Source: Folioceros fuciformis (taxonomy: Eukaryota). From it: DNA of 20,000 bases. Positions 3,446 through 14,935 of this stretch are shown piece by piece; the stretch's first letter is position 1; each line of letters begins with the position of its first letter. A program made the translations under genes and the position numbers. Location: positions 321,250 through 341,249 of the forward strand of contig JBNGIO010006246.1 in NCBI GenBank assembly GCA_049999805.1, given 5' to 3'. Below the pieces are notes generated by a model, which saw nothing but the letters and a program-made list of their open reading frames with translations, had not been told where the DNA came from and did no database searches.

Positions 3446-4052
3446 GAGGATTCCAGACGCAACAACTGCGCCTCATCAGGCTGTTGCTGCTGTCTCGTTC
3501 TGTTGACGGTGTGGGAGGCGACGGGGTTGTAGCCTCCACTGAAGATTAGAGTCGGGACCCGGGATCACAGGTTTATCCCGTAGTTGCAAGGCTAGGTTAG
3601 TTTGAGCATGCGTAGATGCTGTGGCTGGAAGACGCTAAGTGTGGTAAGCATCTTGGTGTAGCGCTCTCCATCTCAAACAAATCGCCTTGTGAAACTTTTG
3701 CTGTCGGTTCAAGTCGACTTCGTTCTGTACTCCCTTTTCGCAAGGCCAAGTCTGGTCACAGCTTGGAGTTTTGCGGGTCCAGCAACGCGCTAGAAAACAG
3801 AGCTGTGCGACGAAAGAGGACAAGATCATCGTCGAACACAAAGACGCAAAGCAGACGCATCTTCCTCTCATCGACCTCTGCTTGCCGCGTTGTGCTTGCC
3901 AGAGCAGCACGCTCTGCCAGCCCAATCCATTTGTGGCGGATGACAAATTCTCGTCCTTGTATGGAACCGTGAATTGTGAGACTGAGCTTTGGAAATCATC
4001 AGAACCTCTTGTGGCGTCCCAGGCCAGCCCTGCCGCTGAGCTGTAGCTTGGC

Positions 4053-6184
4053 ATGGCGCTGGAAGCTAGCGCTGCATCAGCCCGGCTGCTGGCAGAAGGG
4101 CCAGCGCTGGAGCACAACTCCAGCTACCACTCCATTCCCGTCCTCAACATGACCACGGCGGCATGGGCAGGCGTCGCGCTTATTCTCGCCTTCTCGATCG
4201 GTGTGGCCGTGGCCGGGGCCATCAAGCTGGCATTCGCCTTGCGGAGCCTGGCAGAGGAGAAAAAGGCCATGGAGAAGGGCCACGAAGCATCCCTGAAGCA
4301 AAAAATACAGCAGATCCGGGGATTTGAGTCTCCGGCCGGTGCGGTAATCCGGACCGCGCCTCCCCCCCGCGCGGAAGCTGTGGCCAGGGTGGAGAAGGCG
4401 TCGCCAGAGCGGACGCCATGGAGCTTCGGAGCACGGGACATGGTGGCCGAGAATCGGTACAGCGCGGTGTACCGCGTGGTGATGCCGCTCACGGGGCAGG
4501 CCGTGGCCGTGAAGCGCGTGAGCCGATGCCTGTGCCAGCGAGCTCGGAAGGACGCGGGCCGATTGCTGCGGGAGGCCAGCGTCGCTCACCCTAACGTGAT
4601 GTGGCCGACCGGGTTTGTGCTCGACAAGGGCCACAGCCTGCTGTTGCTCTACCCGGAGGAGCATATTGGGAGCGGGACCTTGCGGGATCTGNNNNNNNNN
4701 NNNNNNNNNNNNNNNNNNNNNNNNNNNNNNNNNNNNNNNNNNNNNNNNNNNNNNNNNNNNNNNNNNNNNNNNNNNNNNNNNNNNNNNNNNNCTGGTGAAG
4801 GTGGACAAGTCGAGGGAAAAGTATGCTCGCGGCGGGGCTCCTGCCGGTGCAGGCTGGGACGTGGAGTCTGTGCCTTCTGACATGTCGGATCTTAGCCTGT
4901 ATCCGCAGTCCACTAGCTATGAAAGCTCGGCGATGTTTTCATGTCAGGATTGGAGTGAGTCTAGATCTGCGGCGGGTAGCACGGCCCTGAGAGACGCCAG
5001 GGAGTACTTGAAGCGCATGGCGGAGACGTTCCGTGCGAGGGAAGGGAAATACTACGAATCCGAGACGGAAGGGAGCATCATCTCGTTCCGTGTTGGCTCC
5101 AAGTTCACCGCCAATTCCACAGCGTCCACAATGTCCTGGCGTGACGCACAATCTGATGTTGAGTCAGTGCGGCACGAGTCCGGACACATTGATGCAGGGA
5201 GTTTCGAGCCGGGTGGAGTTTCCGTGGCAACGAGGAAGGCTACCAGCAGCGGCGAGTATTCTGCTTGGTATGGCCATTCTTCCTTCCACCGTTCCCCGTC
5301 TAAGGATCTCCCCAAGCTTGCTGCGCATATGGATCCCTACTCTACTCCGCCAACGACACGTTTCGAAGGAGGAAGTGCGACCGGCATGAACTGTAAGACG
5401 AAAAAGCATGAGAGTCGGATACAGATACCGAAGAAGTATAAGAGGGAGGAGCATGAGGATTGCGATTTGTTGAATTGGAGGGCCAGGTTCCAGATTGCGT
5501 TGGGGCTGGCTCGGGGACTCGCGTTTCTGCATCACAAATGCTCGCCCCCACTCATCCACCTTGACATCTCCTCCAACACGGTGTTTGTCGACAACAACAA
5601 GCAGGCCAAGTTATGCGACGCGGAACTCAGCAACCTGCTGGATCCAGCAAATTGCAGCGTGGAAGATGGAAACGTGTTTACGGACTGTGCCTCTGAGGGC
5701 TACGTAGCGCCAGGTATACATATGTGTACGCAGCTTGCATCAATCATTAGTCTTGTCTCGTTAGCTTGCTGCTGCTGCCAGATGCATGGCAGCAGATCAA
5801 AGCTTAACAATCTGATCCGCTGTGTGGTGCGCAGAATGTGGAACCGACATCAAGGGCGTCGCTCGTAGCTGCAATGTCTACAGCTATGGCGTTGTACTGT
5901 TGGAGTTGCTCACAGGAAAGGAGGCCAGCGGCTACATCGACCAGCACCACAAACACCTTGTGTCGTGGGTAAAGGCAAACGCAAGCTCACAGTTGCAGTA
6001 CCATGATGCCATCGTTATCTTTGATGGAAGGATCACTGATGATATGGGCTGTCTTCGGCACATGCTGTCCGTTCTGCGGATTGCTATGCTGTGCATCAGC
6101 CCTGCATCATGTAGGCCAGATATGCAGAAGGTTGTACAGCTTTTAGAGAAATCTGACTCCAGGGGAAGATTTCGGCGCAACTGA
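4053..6184 (+). CDS. Receptor-like (pseudo)kinase, PXC3/LRR-XI-like kinase domain, with N-terminal TM helix and no ectodomain. Exons 4053-5713 (containing N gap 4692-4791) and 5835-6184.
   Basis: TM segment AAWAGVALILAFSIGVAVAGAIKLAFAL. Kinase motifs YSAVYRVVMP..AVAVKRV, HPNVMWPTGFVL, LNWRARFQIALGLARGLAFLHH..PPLIHLDISS, GYVAP|ECG, NVYSYGVVLLELLTGK, LRIAMLC..RPDMQKVVQLL. A phase-1 intron 5714-5834 (GT..AG) sits in the APE codon. The frame across the gap cannot be verified. Confidence 0.8.
4692..4791. other. Assembly gap (100 N placeholder)
   Basis: Run of N inside the RLK ORF. Confidence 1.
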
Positions 6185-6523
6185 CTTCCTGCTCGCCAGA
6201 ACGCAGGCTTCACCAAGGTGGCCATGCTTCGGCTTTTCGTAGTTGAACTGCGCGTCACTCGTTCTTGGGGAAGCCAAAAATTCCGGCAGCGATTTGACTC
6301 GTCGGCCGCCTCAATTCCCACATTTTCTGCTACCCGAGCTGACTTTTAGAACCAACTGTGCGACACGTAAGTACCATGCCCCGAAGCCTGTGTGGGAATC
6401 CTTGGGGAAATAAGCAAGTGAGTAAAAAATTGCCTGCCACTCGGTCAATGGCAAGACTTGAACATTCTCTTCCTTGGGCGCGAGGCCGAATTTGAATAAA
6501 CAAAGGAAGACAACTGGGTGCGT

Positions 6524-8331
6524 TCAGTTTCGGTGATGCATTCGTCCGCTTTCGGACCCTGCAAATGGATCAATCGTGACATTGATAACCGCAGGTGTTC
6601 TTGCGGAGAAGGACTCTTTCAGAGCCGACTCTAGCTCCTCTGGCGTTCCTGCCAGATAGCCTTTCCCTCCAAAGGCTTCCATCATGACGTCATAGCGCGC
6701 ACCTGGGACAAAGGATGTTGGTGCTGGATCGTCTTTGTGCGGCCCTGAAATATCTTCTGGTCGCCTGCGGTCGCCACCGTAAACTCCACCGTTGTTGAAA
6801 ACAATGATGACCACAGGCAACTTGTAGCGCACTAGAGTCTGATGGAAGAAAACGAGGGATAAAAAATGTAAGACGCGATGTACGACACTCAACTACTGCA
6901 TGACATGATCGATATTTACCTCAACTTCCATCGCACTGAACCCAAAGCCAGAGTCCCCTTCGACAGCCACAACCAGACGTCCAGGTGACACGACAGCCGC
7001 TGCAATGGCGTAACCTAAACCGACTCCCATGGTTCCCCAGGTGCCGGCATCGAGCCTTGTCCGGGGCTCAGTCTGCTCGAGAACTGACCTCCCCACATCC
7101 ATAGTGTTGGCCCCCTCAGACACCAGGATCGGAGCTGGTGAGCCTTCGCCCAATATGGCATCTCGGATGATCCTCATGGGAGTCAGGAAGTTGAACGGAA
7201 CAACGACTTTGGCCAGTGATGCAGCCATTCTGCTCTTGTTCACTTCAGTTTTCGACCGGACCTGTTGCACCCAAGGATGCCCACTTCCCAGCACGAATGG
7301 ATCATCTTTCACGACCTTGTTCAGTTGCTGGATAACAACTCTGGCATCGCCAACTAGTCCAACTGCGGGCTTTCTCAACTTTATCTCTGCTTCATCAATG
7401 TCGACCAGGATGAACTTGACATCCTTTGACCACTGCGGAGGTTCACCAAAATGTAGCAACCAGTTCAGACGTGCACCGACAACTAGGACCACGTCACTCT
7501 GCCCTACCACCAATGATCTGGCTGCTGCAGCAGAGAGGGGATGAGAATCAGGAAGCAACCCCTTCCCCATCGGAGTAGCCAAGAAGGGAATTCCCGTGAC
7601 TTCAACAAATTGCTTGATGGCCCCCTCGGCCCTTGCCAAGGCAGCTCCTTTTCCGAACACAATCAAAGGCCGCTCTGCATTCTTCAGCAGCTCAGCTGCT
7701 TTCTCCAAGTCGGCAGATGGAACTTGCTTGGTCTCCTCTCTGGCCCATACTGGAACAAGTTTCTGAACAGAGCTCAGAAGCTTTTCTGCATCTTCCTCTG
7801 ACAGCGTCTCATGTAGCACATCCGATGGTAAATCAACATACGTCCCACCCGGCCTGCCATCCACTGCAGCGGCCAATGCATCGGAGACAACCTTTGGGAT
7901 CTCCAATATGCTCCTTGCCTTCCCAGAGTACTTCGAAAAAGGTTTCACGATTTCCACCTGGTCTAACTCCTGGAAATCGCCTTTTCCGACGTCCGCTTGT
8001 GTACTGGAACCGGATACCAAGACCAGGGGCCAAGTATTGATGGTGGCATTACTAAGACCAGCCAAACCATGAACACAACCTGGCCCAGATACAGTGAGAA
8101 GAACACCAGGCTTGCCTGTCAAATAACCAGCCGCACCAGCTGCATACCCTGCAGATTGCTCATTGTGGAAAGCTATGAAGCGGACGCCTTCCTTCACCGC
8201 ACTTGAAGCAAATGAGGTCACAGGAATCCCCACCACTCCAAACATGTGTTCCACTCCGGCCTTTGCAAAAGCCCGGGCTGCCACAACATTGCCATCCACT
8301 ACTCTATGCTTGATCTCTGCCCCATTCGTTT
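6524..8331 (-). CDS. OXC: Oxalyl-CoA decarboxylase / 2-hydroxyacyl-CoA lyase (TPP-dependent). Exons 8331-6920 and 6838-6524; probably the C-terminal module of a fusion with the upstream ligase.
   Basis: MFGVVGIPVT, FHNEQSAGYAA (catalytic Glu), TVSGPGCVHGLAGL, GDFQELDQ, RLDAGTWGTMGVGLG and the TPP motif GDSGFGFSAMEVE|TLVRY..IIVFNNGG. The C-terminus is SESGRMHHRN. Intron 6919-6839 (GTAAAT..CAG, phase 0). The exon opens at an acceptor ttgcag| (8332) with an in-frame TGA just upstream and no ATG before the conserved N-terminus. Confidence 0.95.
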
Positions 8332-8613
8332 CTGCAACCGCTCAACACAAGAAATGACACTTCGTCAGGTAGCTGAATGTTGCAACCACACCACTTTCTA
8401 CGATCCCTGCAGAATTCCGACAAGTGCCAGGACAAAATACTGCCCTGCATGATGACCCTCAGGTGTCTGAGGACATAAATGTGTCCACCACATGTGCGTA
8501 CCAATGCTCCAAAAACCCCGCCAGATACCAGGCTGCAGAGTTTACTCCAGATTGATGGCATGTTTACAATCGCTGAAGAACACCCCTAACAAGGTCTACG
8601 AAAAGCCAATCTG

Positions 8614-10562
8614 CTAACCTGTTTTTTCTTCTTTTTGAGAATCGGCAGGCGTAGGCAGGAAGTGTTCAGCAACCATGCGCCGCTGAATCTTGCCAGTTGC
8701 CGTCTTAGGAAGCTCTTCACCGAAAAACAAACGCTTGGGGATCTTGAATGGGGCAAGGTTGCTCCTTAGAAATTCCAAAATATCCTTGTCAGTGGCTTTT
8801 GACCCTTTAATCAACACCACTGCGGCATTCACCTGTTGCACGGTGTATTGCGAGTCAGTGGAAGCTGACATGTCTGCAAGCCCCAGTTCTAAAAAGTCAT
8901 AGATAAGTCTTTGCGACGTTGAGAAGCTGTACCTCTTCACCGTACTTTTCATCTGGAGCAGCAAAAGTCACAGCCTCTGAAATTTTTGGATGCCTCAGTA
9001 GCACACCATCGACCTCAAGAGGAGATATCTTCTCGCCTGCAAAAGCGTAAAGTCAGCTGTGAGCTGTTTTTCAGCAATACCTTTACCATCACAACCTCAA
9101 CATTGTGGCACCACTAGCTTACCACCGCGGTTGATGAGCTCTTTGATACGGCCAGTCAAGGTGAGGTAGCCCTCCTTGTCCAAAAACCCACGATCACCGG
9201 TATGAAACAAGCCAAACTCGAACGCAGACTTATTAGCTTCCGGATTGTTCTTGTACCCCTTGGTCACATTTGAACCCCGAATGCACACCTCACCCTGCTC
9301 TTCAGGCTTCAGAACGTTACCCTCATCGTCCAGAATGGCGAGTTCAACACCTACTGGTTTGCCAACTGTTCCCGCCTTGTGCGGTCCATGTGCCGGCAGT
9401 GGATTGGCAGTGATCTGATGACTGGCTTCTGTCATAGCGTAAGCCTCAAGCACCGGAGCCTGGAAAGCTTCCTCTAGCTTCTCCAACACCGCCGGTGCAA
9501 GACTGGAACTGCAGCTTCGGATGAACCTGAGCTTGGGATATTCCTCCAGCGGTTTGCTCCTATGCAACGAGAGCAATATCTGATGGATGGTGGGAACCGC
9601 AGTGTACCAAGTAGCACGGTAGCCCTTTATGTCAGCCCAGAAGGTGGACGCAGAAAACCGACCTGCAGCTGGCAGAATTGCAGCCCCACCGGCCGCCAGA
9701 CTCGAGAGCAATGCCGCCATCAGCCCGTGAACGTGAAACAGAGGCATGACGATCAGAGTACGGTCAGACTCCGATAGATCATACGCTGCCTTGATGTTCA
9801 GCACTGACGTGGCCAAATTTTTTTGCGTCAGAGGAACTCCCTTGGGCCTGCTGGTGGTCCCTGAAGTGTGGAGAAACAGCGCACCATCCTCCTCCTCAGG
9901 CTGCGGCCCTGCCACATCTTCACTCTCGGCTCCCACCTCCAGCCGTGCGCGGGACGAGAGGACGACATCCCCNNNNNNNNNNNNNNNNNNNNNNNNNNNN
10001 NNNNNNNNNNNNNNNNNNNNNNNNNNNNNNNNNNNNNNNNNNNNNNNNNNNNNNNNNNNNNNNNNNNNNNNNTCCCAATGCACCCCGGCCACCGGCAAGC
10101 CGAGTCTCGCAGCCGCAGCTTCAGCAGATGCGTTTCCCTCCTTCGCGGGGACCAGCAACAGCGACGACTCGGCATCCTTCAAATAGAACATGAATTCATC
10201 CTCCGTGTAGGCAGAATTGAAAGGAGCTGCGACCGCACGAACCCGGATGGTTGCCAAGAACACAACCACGAACTACCCACAATGCACAAATCCGTCATTA
10301 GCACAGGCTCGGATCAAACCAATTATCCCACACTGGAGAGAGTCTTTGAGAAACCCACCTCAAGGGAATTGGGCAAGGCAAGCGACACCACAGCTCCAGG
10401 ATTGACACCGACACGCCTCAGCTGGGCAGCAGCCTTGCTGACCGCAGCACCCAATTCGGAATGCGAGAGCTGGGGGCCTCTGGACGCAATCACAGCCGCA
10501 TTTCTCGCGTGCTCAGCAGCAGCCTTCTCGAGCAGAGCAGTCACTGTGACAGCTAGTGCCAT
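8614..10562 (-). CDS. AAE3: Oxalate-CoA ligase (AAE3-like acyl-activating enzyme). Exons 10562-10359, 10272-9123 (N gap 9973-10072), 9036-8933, 8832-8614 (or 8619 if spliced onward).
   Basis: LPNSLE|FVVVFLATIRVRAVAAPFNSAYT, AMP-binding DGALFLHTSGTTSRPKGVPLTQ, PLFHVHGL, FIRSCSSSLAP, EAYAMTEASH, HTGDRG, KELINRG|GEKISPLEVD, YGEE|VNAAVV, LPKTATGKIQRR. All three introns are GT-AG (86, 86, 100 bp) and restore the frame. Confidence 0.95.
9973..10072. other. Assembly gap (100 N placeholder)
   Basis: Run of N inside AAE3 exon 2. Similarity to AAE3 on both sides suggests the true gap is short. Confidence 1.
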
Positions 10563-10847
10563 TGCGGAAGCCTCCCACTTCTACGGACGGGTCGCTAGGA
10601 AGGAGGCTATTTCAACCGCTCGAAAGACTGGAGGGCCTTCCAGGGTTCCTTTCGGTACCGGAGTATCCTACGCACCTGGCCTCCTCCTGTGCATGGAGGA
10701 CAGGGTAATGGGGAACGCACACGTCATAATACGCATATGGATATTTGAGGTAGATACCTTATGGTCCACGGGAGATAGTATTTCATTCGCCAATGAAGTA
10801 ACGCCCCCTTCGTTACGCAGCGTAGAAGGAAGCAACGGCCTCGAATC

Positions 10848-10947
10848 NNNNNNNNNNNNNNNNNNNNNNNNNNNNNNNNNNNNNNNNNNNNNNNNNNNNN
10901 NNNNNNNNNNNNNNNNNNNNNNNNNNNNNNNNNNNNNNNNNNNNNNN
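10848..10947. other. Assembly gap (100 N placeholder)
   Basis: Run of N upstream of AAE3. Confidence 1.
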
Positions 10948-13386: not shown

Positions 13387-13543
13387 GTGGTATACCATAG
13401 AGAGGATACTCCAATGACATGTAGGTACTACCAGTCGCTGCTTCTAAACGCTTGTTAGGTCTACTCTTGCCTGTCGGCTGGGAAGCGAGCTGGTCTTGAA
13501 CATCCCTCGCAGGTCACAGCAAGGGACGTCAAATTGTTCCACC

Positions 13544-14935
13544 ATGGCGAAGCGCGGGTTGATGGAGCAGGATTTGAGCAAGTTGGAGGTGGATAAGCTG
13601 CATCCGCAGTCTCCAGAGGTGATCTCCCGGCAAGCAACGATAAATCTTGGAACGATCGGGCATGTGGCTCACGGGAAGTCGACAGTGGTGAAGGCTATCT
13701 CGGGGGTGCAGACCGTGCGATTCAAGAACGAGCTGGTTCGGAACATCACTATCAAGCTAGGTTATGCGAATGCGAAGATCTATGTCTGCGAGAATGAGAA
13801 CTGCCCTCGGCCGGTGCGTTACAAGGCCTACGGCAGTGGCAAGGAGGACAGCCCACTGTGTGATGTGCCTGGGTTTGAGACCTCTCGGATGAAGCTGTTG
13901 CGGCATGTGTCTTTTGTGGACTGTCCTGGACATGATATTCTCATGGCTACTATGCTTAACGGTGCTGCCATCATGGATGGGGCCCTGCTGCTCATTGCGA
14001 GCAACGAAAGCTGCCCGCAGCCGCAGACTTCAGAGCATCTGGCTGCTGTGGAGATCATGCGTCTCAAGCATATTATTATTCTGCAAAACAAAATAGATCT
14101 TATCCAGGAAAGCGTGGCGATGAACCAGCACGAGTCCATCCAGAAGTTCATTCAGGGCACTATTGCAGACGGTGCTCCAGTGGTGCCAATATCTGCACAG
14201 CTGAAGTACAATGTGGATGTTGTTTGTGAGTACATCGTGAACAGGATTCCCATCCCGGAGCGAAATTTTGTTGCTCCACCAAACATGATTGTGATCAGGT
14301 CCTTCGATGTTAACAAGCCTGGAGCTGAAGTGGACGATATTAAAGGAGGAGTTGCGGGGGGCAGCATTTTGAGAGGTGTGCTGAAGGTGGGGCAGAAGAT
14401 TGAGGTTCGGCCAGGACAGGTGACCAAGGATGAGAGTGGCAGTATCAAGTGCACCCCTATTTTCTCGAGGATCATCTCCCTGTATGCGGAGCAGAACGAG
14501 CTCCAATTTGCGGTCCCTGGTGGACTCATTGGTGTTGGCACTACCATTGATCCCACTTTGACTCGTGCTGACAGGCTGGTTGGTCAAGTGCTTGGTGAGG
14601 TTGGGGAGCTACCAGAAGTTTTCGTTGAGCTGGAGGTGAATTTCTTTCTTCTTCGGCGACTGTTGGGTGTGAGGACCAAAGGCACTGAGAAACAAGGGAA
14701 AGTTAGTAAGCTAGCAAAAGGAGAGGTGCTCATGTTGAACATTGGGTCCATGTCAACTGGCGCACGGGTGCTGGCCGTCAGAAATGATCTTGCTAAGTTG
14801 CAGCTCACTTCACCAGTATGCACGAGCAAGGGAGAGAAGGTAGCCCTCAGCAGAAGAGTTGAGAATCACTGGCGATTAATTGGTTGGGGTCAAATCCAGG
14901 CCGGAGTACAGCTCGACATTCCCCCAGTAGCATAG
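13544..14935 (+). CDS. eIF2g: Eukaryotic translation initiation factor 2 gamma subunit (463 aa, intronless CDS)
   Basis: [34 protein letters not shown] (G1), [15 protein letters not shown] (G3), LQNKIDL (G4), PISAQ (G5) and C-terminal [16 protein letters not shown]. The ATG context is accATGG, and a likely 5'UTR acceptor cgcag| lies at 13512. Confidence 0.98.

What the first reader, a model, noticed from the sequence alone, without database searches (positions are those of the whole stretch)
6524..10562. Predicted fused oxalate-CoA ligase + oxalyl-CoA decarboxylase: two steps of oxalate catabolism in one gene
Seen: AAE3 and OXC lie head-to-tail on the minus strand only ~280 bp apart. The AAE3 frame ends ...GAA AAA ACA G|GTTAGC, a phase-1 donor at 8619/8618. 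The OXC exon starts ttgcag|AA ACG AAT GGG at 8331, a phase-1 acceptor with an in-frame TGA just upstream and no ATG ahead of the conserved VDGN N-terminus. Removing the 287-bp intron 8618-8332 makes G+AA=Glu and gives a continuous frame: ...HFLPTPADSQKEEKT-E-TNGAEIKHRVVDGNVVAARAF..., a hydrophilic linker, about 1,130 codons nominally. Known: AAE3 converts oxalate to oxalyl-CoA and TPP-dependent OXC converts oxalyl-CoA to formyl-CoA + CO2; in Arabidopsis and maize they are separate genes (AAE3/O7 and At5g17380/OCD1). Inference: a bifunctional enzyme that may channel oxalyl-CoA, or at minimum a tight two-gene metabolic cluster. I cannot confirm whether this fusion has been described before.
Basis: partly seen in the sequence, partly recalled or inferred. 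Interest (0 to 1): 0.92.

Follow-up and report, generated by a model that had tools for sequence, protein, structure and literature searches.

The report
Fused oxalate ligase-decarboxylase gene, alternatively spliced
In this bryophyte-like genome the two enzymes that start oxalate breakdown are spliced into one long protein, an old arrangement shared with liverworts, peat moss and green algae but split into two genes in vascular plants.

Summary
On the minus strand an AAE3-type oxalate-CoA ligase (exons 10562-8619) and an OXC/HACL-type thiamine-diphosphate decarboxylase (exons 8331-6527) are joined in frame by removing a GT-AG, phase-1 intron (8618-8332). Spliced contigs of one public run carry exactly this joint. 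They also carry a second joint from the same donor to 8532, which runs into a stop after 24 codons and gives a ligase-only product. The OXC frame has no in-frame ATG ahead of its conserved N-terminus. The fused ORF is 1105 codons, not about 1130, because a 100-N gap stands for 19 bases.

The architecture is not new to databases. Of the 120 longer relatives listed, 43 carry AMP-binding plus TPP-enzyme domains: Marchantia, Riccia, Calypogeia, Sphagnum fallax, streptophyte and green algae, Galdieria. Sphagnum-like genomic contigs have the same intron at the same place and phase. Vascular plants and some moss-like transcripts have stand-alone genes. Their OXC nests inside the fused clade, which points to an old fusion and later splitting. 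Ten full-text searches found no paper describing the natural fusion. Enzyme activities and channelling are inferred, not shown.

The parts
10359..10562 (-). AAE3 exon 1 (ATG at 10562; 68 codons). The RNA contig reaches 10668, so the 5' UTR is at least 106 nt.
   Evidence: joint 10272/10359; AMP-binding, E 1.2e-08.
9123..10272 (-). AAE3 exon 2. It holds the 100-N assembly gap 9973-10072, which stands for 19 nt in the RNA contig with the frame kept.
   Evidence: tables 5, 5c; AMP-binding, E 8.1e-56; best solved match 5ie0, oxalate--CoA ligase, E 3.5e-128.
8933..9036 (-). AAE3 exon 3 (start of AMP-binding_C).
   Evidence: joints 9035/9122 and 8830/8931 with shifted cuts; matched in Sphagnum-like loci.
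8619..8832 (-). AAE3 exon 4 (rest of AMP-binding_C with the PKTATGKIQR motif, then the hydrophilic tail ...PTPADSQKEEKT). It ends with the first base of a split codon.
   Evidence: (AMP-binding_C, E 3.9e-08).
8332..8618 (-). Linker intron, form A (287 nt, GT..AG, phase 1). Its removal fuses the two reading frames. If it is left unspliced, TAG at 8616-8614 ends the ligase.
   Evidence: table 5 (joint 8331/8619, one contig, depth 41.3, side 27 plus 3 ambiguous).
8533..8618 (-). Linker intron, form B (86 nt, same donor, proximal acceptor ctctgcag at 8533).
   Evidence: table 5 (joint 8532/8619, depth 60.8, side 30). A 258-nt contig then runs on unspliced from 8532 to 8305.
8332..8532 (-). Segment kept in form B. 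The frame reads A-WYLAGF...SSDT and stops (24 extra codons). It holds no in-frame start for OXC.
   Evidence: translation of form B; list of ATGs.
6920..8331 (-). OXC exon 1 (470 codons: TPP_enzyme_N, TPP_enzyme_M and the start of TPP_enzyme_C).
   Evidence: E 2.9e-28, 2.3e-36, 9.3e-11; HACL/OXC structures, E down to 3.2e-131.
6839..6919 (-). OXC intron (81 nt, GT..AG).
   Evidence: joint 6838/6920, side 255.
6524..6838 (-). OXC exon 2 (104 codons, rest of TPP_enzyme_C, ends ...GRMHHRN) plus the TGA stop at 6524-6526. The 3' UTR runs below 6524.
   Evidence: (E 1.4e-09).

Best explanation
This is one nuclear gene of a bryophyte-like plant with two outputs.

Form A. The last ligase exon is spliced across a 287-nt phase-1 intron to the first decarboxylase exon. 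The result is a 1105-residue protein. Its N-terminal AAE3 module would make oxalyl-CoA from oxalate, ATP and CoA. A short, variable, probably disordered linker follows. The C-terminal thiamine-diphosphate OXC module would convert oxalyl-CoA to formyl-CoA and CO2.

Form B. The same donor is spliced to an acceptor 86 nt downstream. The frame then stops after 24 codons, which gives a ligase-only product. It also leaves the OXC part untranslatable from an AUG.

Shown: the exon structure, both splice joints, the domain content and the conservation of the fused layout. Inferred: both enzyme activities (by orthology), any gain from proximity or channelling, and any regulation of the A/B choice. The fusion is old (green lineage, also Galdieria) and was later split in vascular plants and in some moss-like lineages.
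For: -: contigs of run X1 lack all five introns, so they derive from spliced RNA. They match the window with 0 other letters. They carry the joints 8331/8619 (depth 41.3) and 8532/8619 (depth 60.8). Both have GT..AG ends.
- form A is open through both halves. There is no usable in-frame ATG for OXC, and TGA lies at 8344-8342.
- AMP-binding and AMP-binding_C are followed by TPP_enzyme_N, M and C.
- the ligase half is closest to solved oxalate--CoA ligases (5ie0, 6qjz, 8aff). The next family scores about 1e-34. It is 74% identical to the Arabidopsis protein named oxalate--CoA ligase (P0282).
- the OXC half is 70-75% identical to the vascular-plant proteins compared, in a land-plant clade with SH-aLRT 100.
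- 43 of the 120 listed longer relatives carry AMP-binding plus TPP domains.
- the linker region is collinear, and its length and composition vary.
- the window keeps 182 of the 183 columns that are invariant in 32 fused homologs.
- 4 Sphagnum-like genomic loci have the same exon order, the same CAG|GTTAG phase-1 donor, and an acceptor that also yields Glu.
- the fold of the fused Sphagnum homolog has two confident halves (mean pLDDT 85), a linker at 516-533 below pLDDT 50, and pTM 0.55.
- PMC8004701 (passages read): Arabidopsis OXC was expressed and assayed for oxalyl-CoA decarboxylation, and GFP-AtOXC is cytoplasmic.
Against: - Only one run holds the stretch. Its kind is on record only as a guess, and it may come from the same material as the assembly.
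- The form-A junction contig has 27 (plus 3 ambiguous) letters on its shorter side.
- No single contig spans ligase and decarboxylase. Records end at 8334 and begin at 8619.
- Form B has the higher contig depth (60.8 against 41.3), and the tool warns that contig depth cannot rank forms.
- The unspliced frame ends in a clean stop. The same locus is annotated as two genes in Sphagnum jensenii and S. balticum.
- Close relatives have stand-alone OXC and AAE3 transcripts with their own ATG (L006, L002, P0131-P0133, P0266-P0268).
- There is no protein-level evidence.
- The window's genome is not held, so a second OXC gene cannot be excluded.
- OXC and 2-hydroxyacyl-CoA lyase activity cannot be told apart from sequence here.
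Confidence: 0.8

Rival explanations
1. These are two separate neighbouring genes. The ligase ends at TAG 8616-8614 and OXC is made from its own transcript. The joints are read-through (conjoined) by-products without a protein role.
For: - The unspliced frame gives a complete ligase.
- Sphagnum jensenii and S. balticum annotate the homologous locus as two genes.
- Stand-alone genes are the rule in vascular plants. In Diphasiastrum, the locus tags place the two genes in different chromosome series.
- Form B does not fuse the frames.
Against: - There is no usable in-frame ATG for OXC between the TGA at 8344 and the conserved core.
- No joint from any donor inside 8332-8532 was listed.
- The fused joint has a contig depth of 41.3 beside 65.6-67.1 for the flanking exons, so it is not a trace product, though depth is a weak measure.
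- The fused layout is kept from Galdieria and green algae to liverworts. The same phase-1 intron is present in Sphagnum-like DNA.
Confidence: 0.08
2. The fusion is real, but the C-terminal half works as a 2-hydroxyacyl-CoA lyase/synthase (or on another acyl-CoA) rather than as oxalyl-CoA decarboxylase. In that case the protein is not an oxalate-catabolic module.
For: - The best solved matches include enzymes deposited as 2-hydroxyacyl-CoA lyase/synthase (8vzd, 6xn8).
- Most database names for the plant and algal proteins are '2-hydroxyacyl-CoA lyase'.
Against: - The partner domain is closest to characterised oxalate--CoA ligases, and its product is oxalyl-CoA.
- The angiosperm orthologue was assayed as an oxalyl-CoA decarboxylase (PMC8004701, passages).
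- The OXC half lies in the same land-plant clade as the seed-plant proteins.
Confidence: 0.08
3. Assembly or scaffolding artefact: the two genes were put side by side, or the gap region was mis-joined.
For: The window holds three 100-N gaps, one of them inside the ligase.
Against: - The RNA contigs match both sides with 0 other letters and cross the gap in frame.
- There is no N between 8332 and 8618.
- Independent Sphagnum-like contigs show the same neighbourhood.
Confidence: 0.02

Closest known systems
Predicted AMP-binding + TPP-enzyme proteins of about 1100 aa in liverworts, Sphagnum fallax, streptophyte algae, chlorophytes and Galdieria (e.g. Marchantia polymorpha P0243, 1101 aa; Sphagnum fallax P0001, 1102 aa)
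   Same: They share the domain order, a similar length (1049-1240 aa for most) and a collinear junction with a short variable linker. The OXC half is 76-79% identical to the bryophyte members. Sphagnum-like DNA has the same phase-1 linker intron.
   Different: These are database predictions with automatic names. Ten full-text searches found no paper on them. The window adds RNA evidence for the joint and for an alternative acceptor. The chlorophyte members mostly end in PTS1-like tripeptides, which the window lacks (the PTS1 rule is recalled).
Arabidopsis AAE3 (oxalate--CoA ligase, structures 5ie0/5ie2/5ie3) and AtOXC (At5g17380); maize O7 and OCD1 (recalled)
   Same: These are orthologous enzymes of the CoA-dependent oxalate pathway. 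The ligase half matches 5ie0 at E 3.5e-128 and is 74% identical to the Arabidopsis protein. The OXC half is 70-73% identical to the seed-plant proteins compared. It has no N-terminal extension and no PTS1-like end, which fits the cytoplasmic location reported for GFP-AtOXC (PMC8004701, passages).
   Different: In vascular plants they are two unlinked genes of about 515-530 and 570-600 codons. Here they form one spliced reading frame.
Yeast Pcs60 (oxalate--CoA ligase, structures 8aff/8afg) with the peroxisomal TPP enzyme Pxp1 (recalled)
   Same: The ligase family is the same (E 8.9e-84). It is paired with an HACL/OXC-type TPP enzyme in the same compartment.
   Different: They are separate, peroxisomal proteins. 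The pairing is recalled and was not tested here.
Bacterial oxalate degradation by formyl-CoA transferase (Frc) plus OXC (structures 2c31, 2q27)
   Same: The same TPP-dependent decarboxylation of oxalyl-CoA takes place. The OXC half matches 2c31 at E 1.1e-114. One metagenome protein (P0048) even fuses a CoA-transferase domain to OXC.
   Different: Bacteria activate oxalate by CoA transfer from formyl-CoA, not by an ATP-dependent ligase. The partner domain is therefore unrelated.

Membership tests
AAE3 / oxalate--CoA ligase (ANL adenylate-forming superfamily) | AMP-binding plus AMP-binding_C domains | tested here: met
   PF00501 (E 8.1e-56 and 1.2e-08) and PF13193 (E 3.9e-08) on the ligase exons.
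AAE3 / oxalate--CoA ligase (ANL adenylate-forming superfamily) | Closer to characterised oxalate--CoA ligases than to other acyl-CoA ligases | tested here: met
   5ie0 at 3.5e-128, 6qjz at 2.7e-121 and 8aff at 8.9e-84, against 1.7e-34 for the next family; 74% identity to the Arabidopsis oxalate--CoA ligase P0282.
AAE3 / oxalate--CoA ligase (ANL adenylate-forming superfamily) | Core motifs: P-loop TSGTTxRPKG, hinge GRxKExINRGG, C-terminal catalytic Lys in PxTxxGKxxR (motif names recalled) | tested here: met
   all three patterns are found at residues 177, 415 and 501 of the spliced product.
AAE3 / oxalate--CoA ligase (ANL adenylate-forming superfamily) | Oxalate-specific CoA ligase activity | not testable with these tools
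   Needs an enzyme assay.
OXC / HACL family of thiamine-diphosphate enzymes | TPP_enzyme_N, M and C domains in order | tested here: met
   PF02776, PF00205 and PF02775 on exons 8329-6920 and 6838-6527.
OXC / HACL family of thiamine-diphosphate enzymes | Cofactor motifs: activating Glu (HNEQ) and the GDS...NN diphosphate-binding motif (motifs recalled) | tested here: met
   found at residues 586 and 989-1017 of the spliced product.
OXC / HACL family of thiamine-diphosphate enzymes | Orthology with the plant enzyme shown to decarboxylate oxalyl-CoA | tested here: inconclusive
   One search places it in one land-plant clade (SH-aLRT 100) with seed-plant proteins. The Arabidopsis protein itself was not among the rows, and OXC versus HACL specificity cannot be read from these data.
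Fused AAE3-OXC architecture | One open reading frame, ligase first, collinear with the fused homologs | tested here: met
   form A is open for 1105 codons. The junction aligns with 43 fused proteins; 182 of 183 invariant columns are kept.
Fused AAE3-OXC architecture | The fused mRNA exists | tested here: met
   a junction contig joins 8619 to 8331 (one run, shorter side 27 plus 3). A full-length molecule was not seen.
Fused AAE3-OXC architecture | The fused polypeptide exists and has both activities | not testable with these tools
   Needs proteomics and enzymology.

The most novel reading that the evidence does not exclude
The bifunctional ligase-decarboxylase is the ancestral form of CoA-dependent oxalate catabolism in the green lineage. 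The linker intron is where it comes apart. In this genome, an alternative 3' splice site in that intron acts as a switch between a bifunctional and a ligase-only product. In Sphagnum, the same intron carries an in-frame ATG two codons ahead of the acceptor, which would be a half-way stage of gene fission. Vascular plants and some mosses completed the split independently.
Probability: 0.3. Interest if true: 0.6.

Novelty: new member of a known kind. Interest (0 to 1): 0.4.

Why it matters
A natural fusion of the first two enzymes of the CoA-dependent oxalate pathway is independent 'Rosetta stone' evidence that the plant HACL-like TPP enzyme works on the ligase's product. It also offers a ready-made test of whether tethering helps to handle the labile intermediate oxalyl-CoA.

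The distribution is a clean case of gene fission along a known phylogeny. The gene is fused in algae, liverworts and Sphagnum, and split in vascular plants and some moss-like lineages. The break point sits at a conserved intron.

For annotation, the practical point is that this locus should be modelled as one gene with two splice forms. Pipelines disagree on the homologous Sphagnum locus.

Tried and rejected
- RNA runs: no listed holder is on record as RNA. The one holder (X1) is labelled RNA only as a guess. I treat it as RNA because its contigs lack five GT-AG introns.
- Runs X2 and X3 (other organisms of the same study), laid at 80% likeness, gave only short partial matches (53, 61 and 44 letters, all under 90% alike). 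They say nothing about the joint in relatives.
- Cover of 8533-8618: my back-calculation from the bin means gives about 1.4. That is too weak to claim or exclude intron retention.
- The window's own genome is not held, so I could not look for a second OXC or AAE3 copy.
- Intron against intron, window versus Sphagnum-like L001: no meaningful similarity, best E 0.35.
- A small first exon for OXC inside 8332-8618: the ATGs at 8561, 8493 and 8450 are out of frame, the one at 8476 gives 5 codons, and no joint from a donor inside the interval was listed. Rejected.
- Literature: ten full-text searches found no paper on a natural ligase-decarboxylase fusion. In the one paper opened (PMC8004701) 'fusion' refers to His-tag, GFP and GUS constructs; for the other hits only listings and abstract starts were seen. 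Subscription papers are outside the library. One example, recalled and not seen, is a 2011 survey of plant acyl-activating enzymes. No supplements were opened.
- Complex prediction of the two halves was not run. The pair exceeds the 1000-residue limit, and I make no binding claim.
Full report
**What is in the sequence**

All of this is on the minus strand. An ATG at 10562 opens a frame that runs through four exons: 10562-10359, 10272-9123, 9036-8933 and 8832-8619. A second frame runs through 8331-6920 and 6838-6527 and stops at TGA 6526-6524.

Pfam finds AMP-binding and AMP-binding_C on the first set of exons. It finds TPP_enzyme_N, M and C on the second set.

The ligase frame ends ...KEEKT followed by G|GTTAGC. 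The acceptor is ttgcag|AAACG at 8332/8331. TGA at 8344-8342 closes the OXC frame upstream. Of the 7 ATGs listed between 8618 and 8250, only the one at 8476 is in the OXC frame, and it gives 5 codons.

Without splicing, the ligase frame stops immediately (...KTG, TAG at 8616-8614). The nominal count of about 1130 codons includes a 100-N scaffold gap at 9973-10072.

**Transcript evidence**

One public run (X1) holds 75% of the sampled words of 7900-9100. Its kind is on record only as a guess. When laid on 6200-10800, its contigs match with no other letters. They skip 10358-10273, 9122-9037, 8932-8833 and 6919-6839, each with GT..AG ends on the minus strand, so they come from spliced RNA. They replace the 100 N by 19 letters, which keeps the frame and makes the fused ORF 1105 codons.

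Two joints are listed at the donor 8619/8618.
- One goes to 8331. It skips 287 bases, has depth 41.3, and its shorter side is 27 letters plus 3 ambiguous.
- One goes to 8532. It skips 86 bases, has depth 60.8 and side 30. It is carried by a 258-nt contig that then runs unspliced from 8532 to 8305.

The second gives ...EEKT-A-WYLAGF...SSDT and a stop after 24 codons.

The caveats are as follows.
- There is one run, possibly from the same material as the assembly.
- The form-A junction contig is shorter than the tool's 31-letter rule for a bridging record. It is still the size a 31-mer graph bubble allows.
- The long contigs stop at 8334 and begin at 8619, so no single record spans both halves.
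- Contig depth cannot rank the two forms.
- The other two runs of the study gave only short partial matches and are uninformative.

**Identity of the halves**

The ligase exon matches solved oxalate--CoA ligases far better than any other acyl-CoA ligase. 5ie0 scores 3.5e-128, 6qjz 2.7e-121 and 8aff 8.9e-84, while the next family scores 1.7e-34. The exon is 74% identical to the Arabidopsis protein named oxalate--CoA ligase.

The TPP half matches the HACL/OXC group of solved structures. 8vzd scores 3.2e-131, 2c31 1.1e-114 and 2q27 1.6e-113. It is 70-75% identical to the stand-alone proteins of lycophyte, fern, gymnosperm and angiosperm that I compared.

The spliced product carries the ligase P-loop, hinge and C-terminal Lys motifs. 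It also carries the HNEQ and GDS...NN cofactor motifs (motif names recalled).

Passages of PMC8004701 report that Arabidopsis OXC was expressed and assayed for oxalyl-CoA decarboxylation, and that GFP-AtOXC is cytoplasmic. The activities of the protein encoded here are inferred from this orthology. Sequence alone does not separate OXC from 2-hydroxyacyl-CoA lyase activity.

**The fused layout elsewhere**

I searched the OXC exon against longer proteins. It returned 140 hits, of which 120 were listed. Of those 120, 43 carry AMP-binding together with TPP domains, and one more carries AMP-binding_C only.

The named fused proteins come from these groups:
- bryophytes: Sphagnum fallax, Calypogeia fissa, Marchantia paleacea;
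- streptophyte algae: Mesotaenium, Spirogloea, Closterium, Chlorokybus;
- chlorophytes: many species, including Chlorella, Coccomyxa, Trebouxia, Chromochloris, Botryococcus, Chloropicon, Ostreobium and Polytomella;
- red algae: Galdieria.

The Marchantia cluster also holds the 1101-aa M. polymorpha protein, named 'oxalate---CoA ligase' or '2-hydroxyacyl-CoA lyase', and a Riccia protein. Several members come from contigs barely longer than their ORF (for example 1093 aa on 3524 nt) or from a transcriptome assembly, so fused mRNAs exist in other organisms.

I aligned 45 homologs with the window's product. These were the 43 proteins with both domain sets, one protein with AMP-binding_C only, and one with formyl-transferase domains in place of the ligase. 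The ligase end (PKTATGKIQRR..F) and the OXC start (DGN...GV.HMFGVVGIPVT) are collinear. They are separated by a linker that varies in length and composition. The window keeps 182 of the 183 columns that are invariant among 32 fused homologs.

A fold of the Sphagnum fallax protein with that alignment gives two confident halves (mean pLDDT 85). The linker at 516-533 is below pLDDT 50, and pTM is 0.55. This fits a flexible tether and gives no support for a fixed interface.

**Genomic conservation of the joint**

A metagenome scan returned 48 loci. Four Sphagnum-like loci (L001, L003-L005; 78% identity) carry the ligase exons upstream of OXC on the same strand.

In L001 the ligase exon ends CAG|GTTAG, again with a stop on read-through. 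An intron of 830 nt follows, and the acceptor ...TGCCAG|AAGAC again gives Glu. The position and phase are the same as in the window. The intron sequences themselves are not alike.

In L001 an in-frame ATG lies two codons ahead of the acceptor. This explains the OXC-only models of 581 aa that begin MPEDINANK in Sphagnum balticum and S. jensenii, and the ligase-only model that ends ...STSG. Pipelines therefore disagree on the same locus.

Nine loci of about 70% identity that have about 5 kb of upstream DNA (L012, L013, L015, L016, L019-L022, L031) show no ligase exon upstream.

cDNA-like contigs L006 and L002, and several 569-570-aa proteins (P0131-P0133), are stand-alone OXC with their own ATG. 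P0266-P0268 are stand-alone ligases.

**Tree**

I built a quick maximum-likelihood tree of the OXC part, with LG+G4 and SH-aLRT support only. It had 48 rows that I chose from the roughly 380 proteins in hand: 27 fused, 11 stand-alone plant and 10 other.

All land-plant rows fall in one clade (support 100). That clade sits inside a clade with the fused streptophyte algae (99), and that in turn sits among fused chlorophytes. Galdieria branches apart.

The stand-alone vascular-plant rows, and the stand-alone L006 and L002 (sister to Sphagnum, 99), lie within fused lineages. The label 'fused' needs 5 changes on the tree, at least 3 of them forced by well-supported branches. The simplest reading is an old fusion with later splits. 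The tree is not a formal test of the order of events, and the choice of rows is mine.

**Mechanism, with shown and inferred steps marked**

Shown: the gene structure, two splice forms from one donor, the domain content, conservation of the layout and of the linker intron, and the lack of an AUG start for a stand-alone OXC.

Inferred:
- Form A encodes a bifunctional enzyme that turns oxalate into formyl-CoA and CO2 through tethered modules.
- Form B yields ligase only. It may be a target of nonsense-mediated decay, because a spliced intron lies far downstream of its stop (rule recalled).
- OXC supply in this organism depends on form A, unless another copy exists elsewhere in the genome.

Channelling is a hypothesis. 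The variable, low-confidence linker argues for proximity rather than a built tunnel.

**Novelty**

The architecture is already in public protein collections for dozens of species, under automatic names. Ten full-text searches found no paper that describes or tests a natural fusion. In PMC8004701, the one paper opened, 'fusion' means tagged or reporter constructs; the other hits were seen only as listings and abstract starts. Subscription literature and supplements were not covered.

I therefore rate this as a new member of a known, but uncharacterised, kind. The alternative acceptor and the shared linker intron are the new details.

Noticed in passing
window 9973-10072 (also 4692-4791 and 10848-10947): There are three runs of exactly 100 N. 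The one inside the ligase exon stands for only 19 bases in the RNA contig, and the frame is kept.
   Followed up: yes
window 4792-5868 (+), and below 6200: An ORF on the opposite strand has a weak protein-kinase match (Pkinase E 4.5e-07, just under Pfam's cut-off). It is convergent with OXC. The 4254-nt RNA contig that covers OXC runs about 2.2 kb past 6200, so the two transcripts may overlap at their 3' ends.
   Followed up: partly
window 13448-14935 (+): A single 495-codon open frame carries GTP_EFTU, GTP_EFTU_D2 and eIF2_C domains. It looks like a translation initiation factor 2 gamma gene without introns in this stretch.
   Followed up: no
proteins P0015-P0047: Most chlorophyte fused proteins end in PTS1-like tripeptides (SKL, AKL, SKM, PKL, ANL, SNL). 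The window, bryophytes, streptophyte algae and Galdieria end in HRN, HKN or SHN. The fused enzyme may be peroxisomal in chlorophytes and cytosolic in streptophytes (PTS1 rule recalled, not tested).
   Followed up: partly
proteins P0048, P0030, P0083-P0118: OXC also occurs in other fusions. There is a CoA-transferase domain (PF02515) plus OXC in a metagenome protein. There are formyl-transferase domains (PF00551, PF02911) plus OXC in a eukaryotic transcriptome ORF. Many 882-aa metagenome proteins combine GntR/FCD regulator domains with OXC. Some of these may be merged gene calls.
   Followed up: no
L043-L046 (about 3500-5500 in each locus): Sphagnum-like metagenome contigs hold degenerate pieces of the ligase and of OXC side by side. 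They are 33-63% identical to the fused Sphagnum fallax protein P0001 piece by piece, and the linker and OXC N-terminus are missing. They look like broken second copies of the fused gene.
   Followed up: partly
L001 4959-4975: In Sphagnum-like DNA an in-frame ATG sits two codons ahead of the linker-intron acceptor. An OXC-only protein could therefore be made from a transcript that starts inside the intron. The window has a TGA there instead.
   Followed up: partly
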